Shown: positions 7,467-15,769 of the stretch, one piece after another | How the letters are laid out: the number at the start of each line of letters is the position of its first letter | How positions within the stretch are numbered: the first letter of the stretch is position 1 | Source of the DNA: a virus | Length of the DNA stretch: 39,456 bases | Strand: one strand, 5' to 3' | Virus genome (UHGV): UHGV-1356089 | Notes under the pieces: model-generated | Database searches by the model: none | What the model saw: only the letters and a program-made list of their open reading frames with translations | Told to the model about the DNA's origin: nothing | Made by a program: the position numbers and the translations under genes

Positions 7467-8417
7467 TCATTTCACCTCCTGCGGCGGTTCCGGTAGCGGC
7501 ATCCAGTGAGTTGCTTGCTCAATACCATTACCCTGCTTAATCGTTGCATCTCCGCGCCGAAAGGTGCTTCCGGTATAGCGTGCGGAGCATATTAGCGGTT
7601 CAACCAGAGAGCTATCGAAATTCACCGAAATAAGCACGTTCTGGCCCTTTTCAGGCATTCGCTCACTACAGCTTATCCAACCATCCGGAGTTACCGGAGA
7701 GTTGCCGGGTTCTTTAATGTGCAAGCGAGGCTCACCATCTTTTGGCTCAGGCCACTGGCGCTCCATGTTGATCTTCAATTTATCTTCCATAGCAGCGGTA
7801 ATTTCAGCATCGCTGATGCCAGCACGGCGCTGTGCATCCCACAACAGAAACTGCATATCAGCCCACTCGCTAAGATCGTCTGGTTCGGCTGCGGCTTCCA
7901 GTGCCTCTTTTGAGAGATGTTTCAGCGGGCCAACTGGACCAACACAGCCAAACGTCTTATCTGACCATTCAGCATGGCGCTGCCGGATTAAATTGCGCAA
8001 TTGAAGCGATGATCCGTTCTCCTCTGACAACTCTTCATGATTACTTGCAGGTTCGACACCCTGAAGCATGGCGGCGCGGCAGGCATTCCAGCCTCTCACC
8101 TCTGCAATAGCGGCAACAGCATCGACCGCGTACATTTTAAGAGGGTTGGGCATTGGTTTTTCTTCAGGTACTACTGGCATTGGAGGGGCGGCGTATACTT
8201 CAATAATCCCATTATCAATAGGCCATTCTCCATCCTTGAGGTAGTCACTTGTGCCGTCAACTTGCTGTTCTGCAATGTGGAATGCACCTATTGGTTTTGC
8301 TTCCAGTGATGCCAGTGCAATTTCATAAGCACGGCGCTCAATATTGTCTCGAACGTCCAGGCTGCCTATGCGCTCTTTGATTTCTTTAATCAGTTCTTTG
8401 TCGGTGAAAGTTGTCAT
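7467..8417 (-). CDS. Phage protein with DUF550-like and DUF551-like regions
   Basis: 316 aa; C-terminal WISCSERMPEKGQNVLISV... is typical of DUF551; family assignment from memory. Confidence 0.55.
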   Translation of the reverse strand: MTTFTDKELIKEIKERIGSLDVRDNIERRAYEIALASLEAKPIGAFHIAEQQVDGTSDYLKDGEWPIDNGIIEVYAAPPMPVVPEEKPMPNPLKMYAVDAVAAIAEVRGWNACRAAMLQGVEPASNHEELSEENGSSLQLRNLIRQRHAEWSDKTFGCVGPVGPLKHLSKEALEAAAEPDDLSEWADMQFLLWDAQRRAGISDAEITAAMEDKLKINMERQWPEPKDGEPRLHIKEPGNSPVTPDGWISCSERMPEKGQNVLISVNFDSSLVEPLICSARYTGSTFRRGDATIKQGNGIEQATHWMPLPEPPQEVK

Positions 8418-8709: not shown

Positions 8710-9249
8710 TCACTCTCCTTTGATGCGAATGCCAGCTGCGCTTGCTGATTCTTCATATGCGCGTTTAGCAGCGTTAAGGATTGCTGCCAGTGGCGTATAG
8801 CCGCCATCCATTCGGATTGTGTTGTGGATGCCAGCCATTGTGTCGCGCAATTTGCTGTGGCTAGCAGACAGTTCTGCTATGCACTTATCTGCGGCTTCCA
8901 GCTCAACACGCAGTTTCCCTACCGTTAGCGCAATATCCTCGTTCTCCTGATCGCGGCGTTTTATGTATTGCTGGTTTCTTTCCCGTTCATCCAGCAGCGC
9001 CAGCACAGTAGCTGGACTGGCTGCGGCGATGAATTCAGCATTGGCCTGCTGTTCCATTTGGAAATCTTCATCGAAACCGCTTTCTGGATGCGCTCCTTCA
9101 ATTCTGCAAATTGGAATATATCCAGCAGCCTCGCGATGAATTAGTGCATCATCACCATCAAATCGGCCCTCTCCATATTCGAGCGACCACACACCACACG
9201 TTGCTTTCTCTGCCTTTTCACGCAGTACCTGATAGTCAATCTTGCTCAC
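8710..9249 (-). CDS. Ea22/Ead-like coiled-coil protein
   Basis: 179 aa with central coiled-coil-like segment; position and composition resemble lambdoid ea22-region proteins. Confidence 0.45.
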   Translation of the reverse strand: MSKIDYQVLREKAEKATCGVWSLEYGEGRFDGDDALIHREAAGYIPICRIEGAHPESGFDEDFQMEQQANAEFIAAASPATVLALLDERERNQQYIKRRDQENEDIALTVGKLRVELEAADKCIAELSASHSKLRDTMAGIHNTIRMDGGYTPLAAILNAAKRAYEESASAAGIRIKGE

Positions 9250-9644
9250 TGGCTGCCTCCTTTGCGAAGCTGGGCGGCTAACTCGTCACATATGTGCGTC
9301 AAAGAGCAAAGTTTGATTGATGGGTGTTCGCGCATCATCTCAACCCCCTGCGCCCGTACTTCAGCCAGGAAAGCGTCGGTGGCCGGGGTTTTGCAGGACA
9401 TTTGAATTGCCTTCTCTGTGTATAAAACACCCGTTCGATTGGCGGTATACATGATGGTGTTTACAGCATCTTGATGTGCTGATTTCACAGCCTCAACTTC
9501 AGCAGCCAGCGCCGCGCACTTGGCCTCCGCTTCAGCAAATTTACGCACCAGATATTCAGCGTTTGTTTCGTTAACCTTTAAATCTCGTGGGATGCATTTG
9601 CCTTTCAGAAAACCATCCATATCAATTAGTGTCATTTGTTTCAT
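9246..9644 (-). CDS. Hypothetical protein (132 aa)
   Basis: ORF with 4-nt overlaps to both neighbours (coupled translation). Confidence 0.55.
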
Positions 9645-9805
9645 TTCTTACCACTCCGCCACATCGCATTCAGATATTTGTTTTGATTCACTGATGGAAA
9701 AGAATTTCTCTTAAGCAATTCCTCTCTCGATGGCATTGGCTTTACGCGTTGGCGAATAATCATTTCTGCCGGAAGAATGCCGGGATTGTATGCAAGTCCT
9801 CTCAT
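9641..9805 (-). CDS. Small hypothetical protein (54 aa)
   Basis: Not in the ORF track (under 60 aa); AAGAGGAA RBS 5-6 nt upstream of the ATG at 9805; stop overlaps the next start (ATGA). Confidence 0.4.
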
Positions 9806-9821: not shown

Positions 9822-10136
9822 TTAATTTATTCGTATGCCTGCTCTTTCTTCATCGAGTTTTTTTAGCTTGTATCGCATAGCTCTTACTGAATAAATTGAG
9901 CGGCAGGTTGCAATTGCTATTTCTTCTGCGGAGAACTTACCGAAAAGTGATACTTCGGCTCTTGTCCAGCGTCTTCCACGAAGTCGGCTAACAATGTCAG
10001 CTCCAATCCTTGTTGCTTTCGCCATTACTGCTTTTTCAGTCCTTTCCAGTTTTTCAGCGATAACTTCAACTGGCATTGTCGCCGCCACTTCGCGCAAGAA
10101 ATCGACTTCCCATTTCTCCCATGGAGTCTTTTTCAT
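9822..10136 (-). CDS. Hypothetical protein, possible DNA-binding (104 aa)
   Basis: ORF in the operon; C-terminal [30 protein letters not shown] looks like a helix-turn-helix. Confidence 0.55.
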
Positions 10137-10147
10137 AGGCGATACCG

Positions 10148-10636
10148 TTATTTGATAAGAAGTGAAGGTTTCCCAACTTTGAGTTGAGCGCCGGGGATAT
10201 TTATTCCTGCTTTTAGTTGGTGTTTGATTGCCAGTTTGTCGGCTTTAATTGTCGTTTCAAACTCAACGTATTCAGGAGGAAGGGCGCTTGAGTCGATTAT
10301 TTCTACAATTTCTGACGGTTTGCGGATTGTTACCTGGTGAATACCTGCTCGGATATTTTTCTTGCCAACCATTTCAAGCGATGACGCTATATATGATTTG
10401 ATGCTGTCAATCTTATTTTGAATTACTGCGGCTCGCTCATTCAGTGACTTTGCCTCTTCCTTGAGGCGTTCGGCATAACCAGATTCATTTTTAATGACGG
10501 AAAGTAGTTGCTCTATTTTATCGGTAAATTCTCCTTCCATACCTTCTATTGTGTCAGCAATCATCTCTGGTTCTAAATCTGAATCCATCAATTTTGCGTA
10601 TTCATTGGCTATTTCATACAGTTTGCTCACTGGCAA
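10148..10636 (-). CDS. Gp157-like protein (recombination-associated, Sipho_Gp157 family)
   Basis: 162 aa immediately downstream of and overlapping recT; size and composition fit Gp157-family proteins that pair with RecT/Sak recombinases. Confidence 0.5.
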   Translation of the reverse strand: MPVSKLYEIANEYAKLMDSDLEPEMIADTIEGMEGEFTDKIEQLLSVIKNESGYAERLKEEAKSLNERAAVIQNKIDSIKSYIASSLEMVGKKNIRAGIHQVTIRKPSEIVEIIDSSALPPEYVEFETTIKADKLAIKHQLKAGINIPGAQLKVGKPSLLIK

Positions 10637-11525
10637 CCTCCAGTTTCGCTTTGCATTCTATGTAAATGGCTTGTACGTTCTGCTGCAATTTCATTCCAGA
10701 TGTCAGGCGATATGCTTCTGCAAAATATCGCTTCAAATCATCCATGTTTTCTGCCTGAGCCATTTCATCACAAAGAAGTTGTGCTTTTTCCATTATTTCC
10801 TGCTGGCGTTTCCGTTCATCTTCGCGGATATCTTCCTCAGATTTGTGCGGCATAACTGGTTCAGTCCACACACCTTCTTCTTCGTTTAGTACGTGAATAG
10901 CACTATCAAGACGTGATGCCTTAGGCCAATACTTGCTTGCACGCTTTACGACCGTCTTTCGCGCCATCTCATTCCAGTGATTTACCCATGGTCCTTTATC
11001 GCTGAATGCTGCCTTGCTTGTTTTCCTTACAGCCTCAATTTCAGCCAGACTCATCTCTTCCGTTAGATAATCACCTGCTGGCGTCTTAACTGTGCAGTAA
11101 ACGCCAACGATATCACCACGATCACCGAAGGCGTTGTATTTATGGGTTGGTGCTTTATCAAGCCCGTTTGACTCATAGGTATCGTTAGCATGAACAAGTT
11201 TTGCCTGACCCCATGAGATAACACCAGACTCCATTGCAATATGGAGCAATCCCATATAACTGATATCAAGGCAAACCATGCCGTCGCGCGGAACCAGATA
11301 AGCCAGTTTGCTGGCCGGGTTTAAGGTGATGCCGATCGCCGCAACATTGATGATGGCGTTCTGTGCACTGGTTGGATTTGCCAGTGCTGTTTTAGCCAGG
11401 TAATCATTTTTCTGGAAATACTGAATTGCAAACTGGCTTTCCTTAGCCCATGTCACCGTCTGTTCAGTCAATGCTCCGCAGAATAACTGCTCCTGCTGTT
11501 TAACGAATTCAACGATATTGCTCAT
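10614..11525 (-). CDS. recT: RecT-family single-strand annealing recombinase
   Basis: 303 aa; GPWVNHWNEMARKTVVKRASKYWP matches the conserved RecT segment GPWVTHWEEMAKKTAIRRLFKYLP. Confidence 0.85.
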   Translation of the reverse strand: MSNIVEFVKQQEQLFCGALTEQTVTWAKESQFAIQYFQKNDYLAKTALANPTSAQNAIINVAAIGITLNPASKLAYLVPRDGMVCLDISYMGLLHIAMESGVISWGQAKLVHANDTYESNGLDKAPTHKYNAFGDRGDIVGVYCTVKTPAGDYLTEEMSLAEIEAVRKTSKAAFSDKGPWVNHWNEMARKTVVKRASKYWPKASRLDSAIHVLNEEEGVWTEPVMPHKSEEDIREDERKRQQEIMEKAQLLCDEMAQAENMDDLKRYFAEAYRLTSGMKLQQNVQAIYIECKAKLEVASEQTV

Positions 11526-11833
11526 GCTGCTTCTCCATAAATGTGTCTGCGTTTGAATATTGCGAAGGCATATTCAGCCTTAACTCTTTCGGTTATTGCA
11601 TCCCAGAACCATTCAGCGGCTTTTTCCTGATAGTTACAGTCATCATCTTCCAGCCAGTCGATAGCGTCCTTAGTGTGTTCATCTGGTTTATATGAGCGAA
11701 GCATTTCGCTTATTGGGTCGCAACGTTTGCAGAGACGATCAACTTCACTGTTGATTCGTTCGTAATCATCATCGGTAAAACTTGCGATTATTTGCGATAT
11801 TTCACGCTTATCATTCAGAGTCAGAATCATCAT
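11522..11833 (-). CDS. Hypothetical protein (103 aa), immediately upstream of recT
   Basis: ORF overlapping the recT start; acidic. Confidence 0.55.
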   Translation of the reverse strand: MMILTLNDKREISQIIASFTDDDYERINSEVDRLCKRCDPISEMLRSYKPDEHTKDAIDWLEDDDCNYQEKAAEWFWDAITERVKAEYAFAIFKRRHIYGEAA

Positions 11834-11914
11834 CTTTCTCCTGTTCTTTGTGCTGATTGAGCATTTTGTTCATCTGACGAATGAATTCTTCGTCTGACCA
11901 GTTATCTGTAAAAC

Positions 11915-12037
11915 TCATTTCCTGCGATACCACGGAAGGTTGATAGCTGATTTCATCGCTTTATTTGCTTCAAGCCACATTTTTGAATCACCAATAAATC
12001 TGGCTATTACTGCTTTGTTTTGTGCTGCACGAAGCAT
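11915..12037 (-). CDS. Kil-like small protein (40 aa)
   Basis: MLRAAQNKAVIARFIGDSKMWLEANKAM...; the FIGD-KM motif and position next to cIII resemble lambda Kil as I recall it. Confidence 0.4.
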   Translation of the reverse strand: MLRAAQNKAVIARFIGDSKMWLEANKAMKSAINLPWYRRK

Positions 12038-12051
12038 CTGGTGATTAATGG

Positions 12052-12186
12052 CTATTTCATTGCGCATAACGCCTCCAGTTGTTTCTTTGCTGCTCTGATT
12101 AATTGTTTAACTCGGCGTGATAATTCAGATTCGTGCGGGTAGAAAGCGGACATGACGCCGCTACCCGCGAGCTGAAAGTGCATCAT
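12052..12186 (-). CDS. cIII: CIII-like protein (FtsH inhibitor that protects CII)
   Basis: 44 aa; ...HESELSRRVKQLIRAAKKQLEAL resembles the lambda CIII core helix; AAGGAG RBS. Confidence 0.6.
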   Translation of the reverse strand: MMHFQLAGSGVMSAFYPHESELSRRVKQLIRAAKKQLEALCAMK

Positions 12187-12261: not shown

Positions 12262-12630
12262 TCAGGCGGCTTTGATAGTCATATCATCTGAATCAAATAT
12301 TCCTGATGTGTCGATATCGGTAATTCTTATTCCTTCGCTACCATCCATTGAAGGCCATCCTTCCTGACCATTTCCATCATTCCAGTCGAACTCACACACA
12401 ACACCATATGCATTTAAGTCGCTTGAAATTGCTATAAGCAGAGCATGTTGCGCTAGCATGATTAATACAGCATTTAATACAGCGCCGTGTTTATTGAGTC
12501 GGTATTCAGAGTCTGACCAGAAATTATTAATCTGGTGAAGTTTTTCCTCTGTCATTACGTCATGGTCGATTTCAATTTCTATTGATGCTTTCCAGTCGTA
12601 ATCAATGATGTATTTTTTGATGTTTGACAT
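12262..12630 (-). CDS. Hypothetical early protein (122 aa)
   Basis: ORF directly downstream of the terminator at 12651-12676 in the pL operon. Confidence 0.55.
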   Translation of the reverse strand: MSNIKKYIIDYDWKASIEIEIDHDVMTEEKLHQINNFWSDSEYRLNKHGAVLNAVLIMLAQHALLIAISSDLNAYGVVCEFDWNDGNGQEGWPSMDGSEGIRITDIDTSGIFDSDDMTIKAA

Positions 12631-14666: not shown

Positions 14667-15056
14667 TTAGTCAGCGAAGGTTAAGACGAGAATTACCTTA
14701 ATGATGTCTGCTACAACAGACACGGCCATAGATAAACCAAAGACGATCCAAGCCATAGAGATGTCTTCACTACCATCGTATAGAGTTCCGTAATCACTGG
14801 TATAAGGCGTAAATGTCGCGCCTTGATACAATAGGTATAAGCTTGATCCATAGAGGATAAATGCAGATATCCCTTGTATTGCTATGATCACCAGAATCAT
14901 GAAACGAGCTGATCTATGCGCCCAAGCCTGGCTTATTTTTTCTGATAGAGATTTCGCAAGAAAAGCATGCGCTAAGCCGTAAATTGTCGAGATTGCCAAC
15001 ATCCCAAAAAAGCTTGCTATAGCGGTTCCAACCATAAGCGCCCCTTGCGTGATCAA
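14667..15056 (-). CDS. Predicted multi-pass membrane protein translationally coupled to cI (rex-position accessory gene)
   Basis: 129 aa with 3-4 hydrophobic segments; its ATG overlaps the cI stop (ATGA); lies between cI and OL. Confidence 0.7.
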   Translation of the reverse strand: MITQGALMVGTAIASFFGMLAISTIYGLAHAFLAKSLSEKISQAWAHRSARFMILVIIAIQGISAFILYGSSLYLLYQGATFTPYTSDYGTLYDGSEDISMAWIVFGLSMAVSVVADIIKVILVLTFAD

Positions 15057-15769
15057 ACCAGCCTTAGTTTTGTCTCAATTGCAACGCCTATAATCTTGCA
15101 GTTTCCATTGATTGGCACGAGAGGCCATGCAGGATTAAGTCCCTTGAGGTATTTATTTCCGCCGTCGATTATCAGCTTCTTGAATGTTGCTTCGTTAGAG
15201 TCAGAAAGTTTTGCTATGACCAAGCTGCCGTTGACCGCCTCCCTTCCGGTATCGAAAAGAACGAATGTTCCCTCTGGAATGCTTAACCCAACCGGTGCCG
15301 TCATTGAATCACCTTCCACTTTAAGCCAGAACGCATTACCTTGAATATGCGCGTCAGACTCAAGCCAAACATCTATGTCTTTAATGGTGTATGGTTCGCA
15401 TGCTTCACACCACGAGCCAGCCTGGATACTGCTTAACACCGGATACCTCTTTCCTGCTCTGTATTCCCCTGCATACCTTACGTTGGCATCGCTCTTAAGG
15501 CTTTCTGCCTGTTCTGCAACCTTGGCAGCAATTGACTGGCTAAAATCAGCAATTGAGACTTGCAACAACCGTGCAAAACCAGATGCAACCTCAACGTTTA
15601 GCGCGTTTCTGCCATTAAGATAATGCCCTACCGCTCCTTGGGTGATACCCAGTTCATCAGCGATTGAGTATTGGGTTATTCCCAATTCTTTCTTTTTTGA
15701 CTCATACAAAGCCTTAAGCCGCTTAGCGTCTTCGAGCTGTTCTGTCGTCAGTGATTTTTTATTTTCCAT
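15053..15769 (-). CDS. cI: CI-type prophage repressor (HTH plus LexA-like S24 autocleavage domain)
   Basis: 238 aa; HTH ITQYSIADELGITQGAVGHYLNG; Ala-Gly at RYAGEY; GDSM serine and downstream lysine motifs of S24 peptidases. Confidence 0.9.
   Translation of the reverse strand: MENKKSLTTEQLEDAKRLKALYESKKKELGITQYSIADELGITQGAVGHYLNGRNALNVEVASGFARLLQVSIADFSQSIAAKVAEQAESLKSDANVRYAGEYRAGKRYPVLSSIQAGSWCEACEPYTIKDIDVWLESDAHIQGNAFWLKVEGDSMTAPVGLSIPEGTFVLFDTGREAVNGSLVIAKLSDSNEATFKKLIIDGGNKYLKGLNPAWPLVPINGNCKIIGVAIETKLRLV

What the first reader, a model, noticed from the sequence alone, without database searches (positions are those of the whole stretch)
10148..11833. RecT recombinase with Gp157-like partner but no recognisable exonuclease or Gam/Abc-type RecBCD inhibitor
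The recombination module has a RecT-family annealase followed by a 162-aa Gp157-like protein, with a 103-aa acidic ORF just upstream. I see no RecE or lambda-Exo-like nuclease and no Gam or Abc2-like protein. Lambdoid recombination modules usually include a host RecBCD inhibitor, so one of the flanking unknown ORFs (11522..11833, 9822..10136 or 9246..9644) may be an uncharacterised one.
Basis: inference. Interest (0 to 1): 0.45.

Follow-up and report, generated by a model that had tools for sequence, protein, structure and literature searches.

The report
Exonuclease-less RecT cassette with Gam-slot gene
This E. coli prophage carries a common but unstudied recombination cassette in which RecT is partnered not by an exonuclease but by a distant relative of phage Mu's DNA-end-protecting Gam, and the small acidic gene in front of RecT sits exactly where phage lambda keeps its RecBCD inhibitor, which makes it a good but untested candidate for a new inhibitor family.

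Summary
The window is a P22-like prophage of E. coli ECE170 at the lambda attachment site. Its early-left operon reads kil, a 102/103-aa acidic ORF (phrog_3486), RecT, Gp157, a 104-aa two-HTH protein, DUF2737. No lambda-Exo/YqaJ or RecE/DUF3799 nuclease, lambda Gam or Abc2 is present.

"No Gam-type protein" is only half true.
- Gp157 is a remote homologue of Mu Gam, the end-binding host-nuclease inhibitor. The sequence bridges are moderate, and fold searches did not confirm the link.
- The 104-aa ORF is homologous to Mu gp9, the gene next to Mu gam. It falls in the same PHROG as P22 Abc1.

- In 100 related loci, the slot before RecT holds this ORF (80), lambda Gam (5) or a Gam-like variant (5), and never two of them.
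- Diverged family members always head recombination modules of five different architectures, with start/stop overlap onto the next gene.
- Its size and charge match GamS.

Homology to Gam is not established, and its function is inferred only. The third candidate, 9246..9644, has no support. The cassette already occurs in sequenced phages (HK140, mEpX1, Kapi1).

The parts
11811..11933 (-). Unannotated 40-aa acidic ORF (orf40) overlapping kil and orf103. It may be an Arf-like small cofactor, and whether it is a gene is uncertain.
   Evidence: pI 4.21. Hits phrog_17766 at E 7.6e-16. Weak match to P22 Arf, 6/12 identities, E 0.05. Detected by BLAST in 74 of 100 loci. Not annotated by RefSeq.
11522..11833 (-). 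orf103: 102/103-aa acidic all-helical protein of family phrog_3486, in the 'Gam slot'. Predicted RecBCD antagonist; this is an inference.
   Evidence: phrog_3486 E 2.6e-59, no Pfam family. AF2 model shows five helices, pLDDT 77. Sits directly upstream of RecT in 80 of 96 loci and is mutually exclusive with lambda Gam and phrog_1050. Heads five module types. Local motif shared with Gam, hhalign P 0.003-0.01.
10614..11525 (-). RecT-family single-strand annealing protein, 303 aa.
   Evidence: PF03837 E 3.8e-32, phrog_148 E 4.9e-92. RefSeq names it 'recombinase RecT'.
10148..10630 (-). Gp157-family protein, 160 aa. Remote homologue of Mu Gam and the predicted DNA-end-binding partner of RecT. It occupies the position that an exonuclease holds in sibling modules.
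   Evidence: PF05565 E 2.4e-37, phrog_253 'Mu Gam-like end protection' E 5e-54. Family member LP-101 hits PF07352 at E 3e-6 over its full length. hhalign against the Mu Gam family gives prob 64.5%, P 6e-5. AF2 model has a long helix 21-88 plus a C-terminal beta domain. Adjacent to RecT in 99 of 100 loci.
9822..10136 (-). orf104: basic protein with two Myb/HTH-like repeats. Homologue of Mu gp9, the gene next to Mu gam, and in the same PHROG as P22 Abc1.
   Evidence: phrog_323 E 2.8e-20. Mu gp9 and P22 Abc1 hit phrog_323 at 5e-29 and 2e-23. hhalign against the Mu gp9 family gives prob 96.6%, E 5e-10. Against Abc1 the alignment is colinear over 76 columns with P 6e-4. Follows Gp157 in 82 of 96 loci.
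9641..9805 (-). DUF2737 protein, homologue of P22 orf56. It marks the downstream border of the cassette, as orf56 does after abc2 in P22.
   Evidence: 75% identical to P22 orf56. RefSeq names it a DUF2737 family protein.
11915..12186 (-). kil (11915..12067) and cIII-like (12052..12186). These are the upstream border, as in lambda and P22.
   Evidence: RefSeq kil annotation. The same cIII/kil-then-orf103 order appears in L108, L109, L114-L116, L207 and L209.

Best explanation
The region is a conserved, exonuclease-less recombination and end-protection cassette of lambdoid and P22-like phages. It is expressed from pL after kil, in the order orf103 - RecT - Gp157 - orf104.

Shown:
- The gene identities.
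- The tight operon packing.
- The conservation of the RecT-Gp157 pair.
- The absence of any lambda-Exo/YqaJ or RecE/DUF3799 nuclease.
- The homology of orf104 to Mu gp9.

Inferred:
1. Gp157 is a diverged Mu-Gam-type protein. It binds the ends of the injected or cut linear phage DNA and works with RecT in place of a dedicated exonuclease.
2. orf103 is the functional counterpart of lambda Gam. It is a roughly 100-aa acidic helical protein that neutralises or re-programmes host RecBCD, so that phage ends survive and RecT, not RecA, gets the DNA.
3. orf104 is an Abc1/gp9-type accessory DNA-binding protein.
4. Resection is left to host nucleases.
For: RecT-Gp157 adjacency holds in 99 of 100 loci, including 19 of 20 species-level genomes at 57-79% identity. 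No exonuclease lies within +-6 kb in any of them. Gp157-family genes also sit next to Sak4 or Erf annealases without an exonuclease in Listeria, Streptococcus, Lactobacillus, Staphylococcus and Bacillus phages. PMC8093625 notes that they alternate there with true Mu gam homologues.

Link between Gp157 and Mu Gam:
- PF07352 hit of the LP-101 member at E 3e-6, residues 28-158 against profile positions 6-147 of 149.
- hhalign prob 64.5%, P 6e-5, colinear, with a reversed control at P 0.15.
- Conserved neighbour. Mu gp9-like ORFs end just before gam in 48 of 80 Mu-like loci, and orf104 against gp9 gives prob 96.6%.

orf103 as a Gam analogue:
- The slot before RecT holds orf103 (80), lambda Gam (5) or phrog_1050 Gam-like (5), never two of them.
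- Family members at 25-50% identity always come first and overlap the next gene's start by 1-4 nt. They do so in RecT+Gp157, RecT+YqaJ, DUF3799+RecT, DUF3799+phrog_11517 and phrog_21613+YqaJ modules.
- SEN22 keeps orf103 (95% identity) and orf104 (91%) around a swapped core pair.
- orf103 is 102 aa, pI 4.64, net -9. GamS is 98 aa, pI 4.63, net -9.
- The two share the motif [ST]K.A[IV]...DDD..[YF]QE[KR]aaE at colinear positions.
Against: No functional data exist for any of the three accessory proteins. No paper was found by accession or PHROG id.

Against the Gp157 inference:
- The window's own Gp157 gives no PF07352 hit even at E 10.
- Lambda Gam and Gp157 co-occur in some phages (Dewey, L007, L016), so Gp157 is not simply a Gam substitute.

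Against the orf103 inference:
- orf103 against Gam aligns over only 23-24 columns at 4-11% probability, and this did not improve with a deeper profile.
- The orf103 model has no significant PDB match, lambda Gam included.
- Position is not decisive. In P22 the gene before the annealase is arf, an accessory factor, and the anti-RecBCD genes lie after it.
Confidence: 0.5

Rival explanations
1. Gp157, as a Mu-Gam-type end binder, with or without the Abc1/gp9-like orf104, supplies all the protection from RecBCD. On this view orf103 is not a nuclease antagonist. It would be a recombination cofactor of the annealase or nuclease, like P22 Arf or a loader, or a regulator.
For: The PHROG label and the sequence bridges link Gp157 to Mu Gam. 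In P22 the anti-RecBCD genes abc1 and abc2 lie after the annealase, where Gp157 and orf104 lie here, and the gene before the annealase is the cofactor arf. orf103 is translationally coupled to whatever recombination gene follows it. orf103 shows no established homology or fold match to Gam or Abc2.
Against: Lambda Gam or Gam-like phrog_1050 occupies the orf103 slot in sibling modules that still carry Gp157 and orf104. A RecBCD inhibitor is therefore kept alongside Gp157, and orf103 alternates with it. orf103 accompanies modules with unrelated annealases and nucleases, which fits a host-directed target better than a partner-specific cofactor.
Confidence: 0.25
2. Gp157 is not functionally Gam-like. 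It would be a distinct annealase partner that replaces the exonuclease by another route. Examples are recruiting a host helicase or nuclease, or SSB, or targeting RecT to replication forks or to the phage origin. On this view the 'Mu Gam-like' label over-reads a weak similarity.
For: Fold searches did not find 2P2U or Ku. HMMER shows no direct hit of the window protein to PF07352. In SEN22 the RecT+Gp157 pair is exchanged for nuclease plus a 189-aa protein between identical flanks, so Gp157 sits in a partner slot. The family pairs with three unrelated annealase families.
Against: There is a full-length colinear PF07352 match of a bona fide Gp157 member at E 3e-6 and a profile-profile P of 6e-5. 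A gp9-like neighbour is conserved in both Mu and this cassette. The family alternates by position with true Mu gam homologues in Firmicutes phages (PMC8093625).
Confidence: 0.2
3. The cassette is a decayed remnant of a Red/RecET-like module that lost its exonuclease and no longer functions.
For: No exonuclease is present in the window. Neighbouring ea-region genes are flagged as pseudogenes by RefSeq.
Against: The same intact gene order occurs in plaque-forming phages (HK140, mEpX1, Kapi1, Gally, Louie). It also occurs in 19 of 20 species-level genomes at 57-79% protein identity with the ORFs intact.
Confidence: 0.03

Closest known systems
Phage lambda Red operon (kil - gam - bet - exo)
   Same: Same place in the pL operon after cIII and kil. 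A small acidic protein of about 100 aa comes first, then an annealase. orf103 alternates with lambda Gam in that first slot and matches GamS in size and charge.
   Different: The annealase is RecT rather than Red-beta. There is no Exo. Gp157 and orf104 follow the annealase instead. orf103 is not demonstrably homologous to Gam.
Phage P22 recombination region (kil - arf - erf - abc1 - abc2 - orf56)
   Same: No dedicated exonuclease. A small acidic ORF lies before the annealase. An Abc1-type protein (phrog_323) lies after it. The same orf56/DUF2737 gene closes the region, and the prophage itself is P22-like.
   Different: RecT rather than Erf. No Abc2. Gp157 is present. orf104 against Abc1 is only weakly alignable, P 6e-4.
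Phage Mu gp9 - Gam pair
   Same: orf104 is homologous to gp9 (prob 96.6%). Gp157 is a remote relative of Gam. The two genes are adjacent in both.
   Different: The gene order is inverted. Mu has no annealase. The Gp157-to-Gam similarity is marginal for the window protein itself, and the fold match is unconfirmed.
Rac prophage RecE/RecT and RecT+YqaJ modules
   Same: Same RecT family. Diverged orf103 relatives head RecT+YqaJ and DUF3799+RecT modules.
   Different: Those modules carry a 5'-3' exonuclease and this one does not. Rac's upstream gene racC is unrelated to orf103.
Photorhabdus Plu-gamma/beta/alpha (Plu2934-2936; PMC4381043)
   Same: This is a precedent for a non-canonical first gene of a Red-like operon that boosts recombineering and is proposed to act like Gam.
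   Different: Plu2934 resembles only helix H1 of Gam, like the phrog_1050 variant found here in L008, L014 and L026. orf103 lacks that helix.

Membership tests
RecT family (PF03837) | Match to the family profile above the curated cut-off | tested here: met
   111.9 bits against a cut-off of 24, E 3.8e-32. phrog_148 E 4.9e-92.
Siphovirus Gp157 family (PF05565) | Full-length match to the family profile above the cut-off | tested here: met
   128.9 bits against a cut-off of 28.6, profile positions 1-162 of 162.
Mu Gam family (PF07352), for Gp157 | Sequence match to the Mu Gam profile | tested here: inconclusive
   The window protein gives no hit at E<=10. The Gp157 member from Listeria phage LP-101 scores 27.7 bits (cut-off 28.3), E 3e-6, over its full length. 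hhalign family against family gives prob 64.5%, P 6e-5.
Mu Gam family (PF07352), for Gp157 | Ku/Gam-like fold (solved homologue 2P2U) | tested here: not met
Mu Gam family (PF07352), for Gp157 | Binds double-stranded DNA ends and blocks exonucleases | not testable with these tools
   Needs EMSA and nuclease-protection assays.
Lambda Gam family (PF06064), for orf103 | Sequence match to the Gam profile | tested here: not met
   No Pfam or PHROG Gam hit for any of 31 family members. There is only a 23-24 column local hhalign match, P 0.003-0.01, prob 4-11%.
Lambda Gam family (PF06064), for orf103 | Gam fold (2UUZ / 5MBV) | tested here: not met
   Foldseek of the orf103 model against the PDB gives no match with E<4.
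Lambda Gam family (PF06064), for orf103 | First gene of the recombination operon; about 100 aa and acidic | tested here: met
Lambda Gam family (PF06064), for orf103 | Binds and inhibits RecBCD | not testable with these tools
   Needs genetics or biochemistry.
P22 Abc2 (phrog_656), for orf103 | Sequence similarity to Abc2 | tested here: not met
   hhalign P 0.54. BLASTP E 8.4.
Mu gp9 / P22 Abc1 group (phrog_323), for orf104 | Match to phrog_323 and homology to Mu gp9 | tested here: met
   phrog_323 E 2.8e-20. hhalign against the gp9 family gives prob 96.6%, E 5e-10.
Mu gp9 / P22 Abc1 group (phrog_323), for orf104 | Direct homology to P22 Abc1 | tested here: inconclusive
   Abc1 hits phrog_323 at E 2e-23. 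BLASTP gives nothing. hhalign is colinear over 76 columns with P 6e-4, prob 28%.
Red/RecET-type two-component recombinase | A 5'-3' exonuclease (YqaJ/lambda-Exo or RecE/DUF3799) encoded beside the annealase | tested here: not met
   None in the window or in 100 Gp157 loci.

The most novel reading that the evidence does not exclude
phrog_3486 (orf103) is a new family of RecBCD antagonists. It is unrelated, or only vestigially related, to lambda Gam, and it serves as the interchangeable 'slot-1' gene of at least five kinds of phage recombination module. In this cassette it would work with a Ku/Mu-Gam-like end binder (Gp157) that replaces the exonuclease. The phage would then carry out annealase-driven recombination with no nuclease of its own.
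Probability: 0.35. Interest if true: 0.65.

Novelty: new variant of a known kind. Interest (0 to 1): 0.45.

Why it matters
RecBCD inhibitors matter for three reasons. They are central to phage-host conflict. Known ones such as Gam and gp5.9 are the cues sensed by some abortive-infection defences (my own knowledge). They are also working parts of recombineering tools.

A further inhibitor family that travels with many different annealase/nuclease pairs would widen that toolbox. It would also help explain how P22-like phages that lack Abc2 protect and circularise their linear DNA.

The RecT-Gp157 pairing is widespread. Gp157-family genes occur in 599 phage records, next to RecT, Erf or Sak4. The pairing raises a testable question: how does an annealase work without its own exonuclease?

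The recurring Abc1/gp9-like protein beside three different end-protection devices also gives a handle on the long-unknown role of P22 Abc1.

Tried and rejected
- Foldseek against the PDB found nothing significant for Gp157 or for orf103.
- Profile searches of the PDB by sequence with Gp157 (A1) and orf103 (A2, A4) gave no meaningful hits.
- orf103 against P22 Abc2, Abc1 and Arf showed no similarity.
- orf103 against Rac RacC, which is also upstream of recE, showed no relationship.
- Deepening the orf103 profile from 11 to 31 diverse sequences did not strengthen the Gam match, so I do not claim homology.
- The search for related loci with the diverse orf103 alignment failed because no stretch was conserved enough. 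I used exact-protein look-ups instead.
- The Gam alignment obtained is shallow, with all members at or above 74% identity.
- I considered a PD-(D/E)XK motif in the Gp157 beta domain and rejected it by inspection. The spacing is wrong and the domain is too small.
- Literature searches by Gp157, Sipho_Gp157, PHROG ids and accessions found only in-silico mentions.
Full report
**What the window is.** The 39,456-base window is identical to E. coli ECE170 chromosome NZ_CP196906.1, positions 4088323-4127778. It holds a P22-like prophage, with a P22-type capsid, portal and gp4/gp10 head-completion genes. The prophage is integrated next to ybhC and carries a lambda-type integrase. Its early-left operon runs on the minus strand in this order:
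- cI-like repressor (15053..15769), with sieB on the other strand
- ral, DUF2528 (12262..12630), cIII (12052..12186), kil (11915..12067)
- the 102/103-aa ORF (11522..11833)
- RecT (10614..11525)
- Gp157 (10148..10630)
- a 104-aa ORF (9822..10136)
- DUF2737 (9641..9805)
- a 132-aa ORF (9246..9644)
- Ea22-like and other ea genes, then xis and int

**Checking the observation.** RecT matches PF03837 (E 3.8e-32) and Gp157 matches PF05565 (E 2.4e-37). Homologues and RefSeq place the Gp157 start at 10630, giving 160 aa. The upstream ORF is acidic, with pI 4.64 and net charge -9. It belongs to phrog_3486, of unknown function, and to no Pfam family.

The genes overlap or nearly abut: 4 nt, 17 nt, then an 11-nt gap. 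RefSeq annotates no exonuclease, Gam or Abc2 anywhere in the window. YqaJ and DUF3799 nuclease queries find nothing in the window. So the anatomy and the lack of a dedicated nuclease are confirmed.

**Gp157 is probably a diverged Mu Gam.** PHROGs labels its family (phrog_253) 'Mu Gam-like end protection'. Mu Gam itself falls in phrog_491, so I tested the link directly.
- HMMER finds no PF07352 match for the window protein, even at E 10.
- The Gp157 member of Listeria phage LP-101 (PF05565 E 2.9e-46) also matches PF07352. The match is at E 3e-6, 27.7 bits against a cut-off of 28.3, and covers residues 28-158 against profile positions 6-147 of 149. Two other members give weak C-terminal hits.
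- A profile of 14 diverse Gp157 proteins aligns colinearly with a profile of 13 Mu Gam proteins. Residues 94-159 align with 96-165, at probability 64.5% and P 6e-5. A reversed control gives P 0.15.
- The AF2 model (pLDDT 79, pTM 0.40) has a 68-residue helix followed by a small beta domain.

I rate the homology as likely but not proven. The function, end binding, is inferred.

**A conserved neighbour supports the link.** The 104-aa ORF downstream of Gp157 and Mu gp9, the gene immediately upstream of Mu gam, both match phrog_323. Family profiles of the two align at 96.6% probability, E 5e-10.

gp9-like ORFs end just before gam in 48 of 80 Mu-like loci. orf104 follows Gp157 in 82 of 96 loci. P22 Abc1 also matches phrog_323 (E 2e-23). 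It aligns colinearly but weakly with orf104 (P 6e-4), and BLASTP finds nothing.

P22 reads kil-arf-erf-abc1-abc2-orf56. The window reads kil-(orf40)-orf103-recT-gp157-orf104-DUF2737, and DUF2737 is 75% identical to P22 orf56. The literature states that the roles of Abc1 and Arf are unknown (PMC9836394).

**How general the RecT-Gp157 pairing is.** I collected 100 loci encoding close or moderately diverged Gp157 proteins. Twenty are species-level genomes at 57-79% identity and 80 are viral contigs. RecT is the adjacent upstream gene in 99 of them. No YqaJ or DUF3799 nuclease lies within 6 kb in any of them.

The Gp157 family occurs in 599 phage records. In Gram-positive phages it sits directly beside Sak4 (LP-101, ALQ13.2, Lrm1) or Erf (SA75, Bacillus 022DV001), again without an exonuclease. 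PMC8093625 notes that in Firmicutes it alternates by position with genuine Mu gam homologues, DUF2483 and DUF1351. Gp157 is therefore a general annealase companion.

**The 103-aa ORF sits in the Gam slot.** In phage Dewey the gene just before RecT is a bona fide lambda Gam.
- Across the 96 loci with sequence upstream of RecT, the slot holds orf103 in 80 and lambda Gam in 5. A 92-aa variant fills it in 5 more.
- The variant's first 45 residues are homologous to Gam helix H1 (hhalign 95%, E 4e-8). It belongs to phrog_1050, 'gam-like host nuclease inhibitor'.
- orf103 and Gam never co-occur.
- An exhaustive profile search found only 53 representative relatives. All 31 full-length ones match phrog_3486.

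Where contigs were long enough, members at 25-50% identity are always the first gene after cIII/kil. Each overlaps the next gene's start by 1 or 4 nt. This holds in five architectures:
- RecT+Gp157 (L111, L115)
- RecT+YqaJ (L107, L116, phages ENT47670 and Midgardsormr38)
- DUF3799+RecT (L108, phiEt88)
- DUF3799+phrog_11517 (L114, SEN22)
- phrog_21613+YqaJ (L109)

In Salmonella phage SEN22, near-identical orf103 (95%) and orf104 (91%) flank a completely different core pair. orf103 therefore travels independently of the particular annealase and nuclease. That fits a host-directed role such as RecBCD antagonism. It also matches GamS in size and charge: 102 aa, pI 4.64, net -9 against 98 aa, pI 4.63, net -9.

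**Is orf103 homologous to Gam?** BLASTP gives one 23-residue local match, 11 identities, single-comparison E 8e-5. The match lies over a short helix, a DDD turn and the start of the long C-terminal helix (TKDAIDWLEDDDCNYQEKAAEWF against SKNAISKAFDDDVEFQERAAEFI). It is at colinear positions, and the residues are among the most conserved in both families.
- Profile-profile P values are 0.003-0.01, with probabilities of only 4-11%. They did not improve with the deeper alignment. Reversed controls give P about 0.5.
- The AF2 model (five helices, pLDDT 77) has no significant PDB match.

I treat this as a lead, not as homology. orf103 shows no similarity to Abc2, Abc1, Arf or RacC.

**The other candidates.** ORF 9822..10136 is the gp9/Abc1-like double-HTH protein described above. 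It is basic (pI 10.0) and looks like a DNA-binding protein rather than a DNA mimic. ORF 9246..9644 matches several unknown PHROGs only in part. It lies in the mosaic ea region and is found in only 49 of the 100 loci. Nothing links it to RecBCD.

**Most likely mechanism.** The shown parts are the gene identities, order, conservation and missing nuclease. The rest is inferred.
1. After injection of the terminally redundant linear genome, orf103 neutralises or re-programmes RecBCD, as Gam or Abc2 do.
2. Gp157 binds DNA ends as Mu Gam does and cooperates with RecT.
3. Host nucleases provide single-stranded DNA.
4. RecT anneals the redundant ends or recombines with replicating DNA.

Lambda Gam and Gp157 co-occur in Dewey-type phages. 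This argues that Gp157 does not make a RecBCD inhibitor redundant, which favours orf103 as that inhibitor here.

The main rival is that Gp157, with or without orf104, provides all the protection and orf103 is an Arf-like cofactor. P22's gene order gives that rival some weight.

**Novelty and verdict.** The cassette is present intact in known phages: HK140, mEpX1, Kapi1, Gally and Louie. At least 51 complete E. coli genomes carry 80% or more of the region. The Mu-Gam label for Gp157 already exists in PHROGs. No experimental work on Gp157, orf103 or orf104 was found.

What appears new is the consistent Gam-slot behaviour of phrog_3486 and the recurrent gp9/Abc1-type neighbour. The finding is a sound, moderately interesting lead.

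Noticed in passing
window 12262-12630 (-): The DUF2528 protein between ral and cIII is strongly acidic (122 aa, pI 4.28, net -14). Its function is unknown, and it is another possible host-directed or DNA-mimic factor in the same operon.
   Followed up: no
window 11811-11933 (-): An unannotated 40-aa acidic ORF overlaps kil and orf103. It has a weak 'SDEEFI' match to P22 Arf (E 0.05). Database proteins P0122 and P0145 are fusions of it with orf103 through the shared 'KDDD' stretch.
   Followed up: partly
L207 (Salmonella phage SEN22) 3498-5697: orf103 (95% identity) and orf104 (91% identity) flank a DUF3799 exonuclease plus a 189-aa phrog_11517 protein with no Pfam match, in place of RecT+Gp157. 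The 189-aa protein, and the related 184-aa and 167-aa proteins in L114 and L109, may be an unrecognised annealase family.
   Followed up: partly
L008, L014, L019, L021, L026, just upstream of RecT: A 92-aa Gam-like variant (phrog_1050) shares only the N-terminal H1 helix with lambda Gam and has a different C-terminal half ending in CPF. This recalls the description of Photorhabdus Plu2934.
   Followed up: partly
H31 (E. coli 22KM0354) and L009 between RecT and Gp157: Some relatives have an HNH endonuclease gene inserted between RecT and Gp157, and L009 has a 155-aa ORF there. This looks like a homing-endonuclease insertion.
   Followed up: no
window 7467-8417 and 8710-9249 (-): The window has one continuous 316-aa ORF carrying dATP/dGTP pyrophosphohydrolase plus DUF551. 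RefSeq splits it into a 200-aa CDS and a DUF551 pseudogene fragment. RefSeq also flags the Ea22-like gene as truncated. Both are signs of mosaic rearrangement in the ea region.
   Followed up: no
L024 904-1227: In Lonsdalea the slot before RecT holds a 107-aa acidic protein with no PHROG or Pfam match. It may be yet another occupant type of the Gam slot.
   Followed up: no
L012, L015, L017, L019, L021, L022, L111 downstream of Gp157: In several genera the gene after Gp157 is not orf104. It is a 125-144-aa basic protein of phrog_1680, of unknown function, starting MKK.PFYRR.
   Followed up: no
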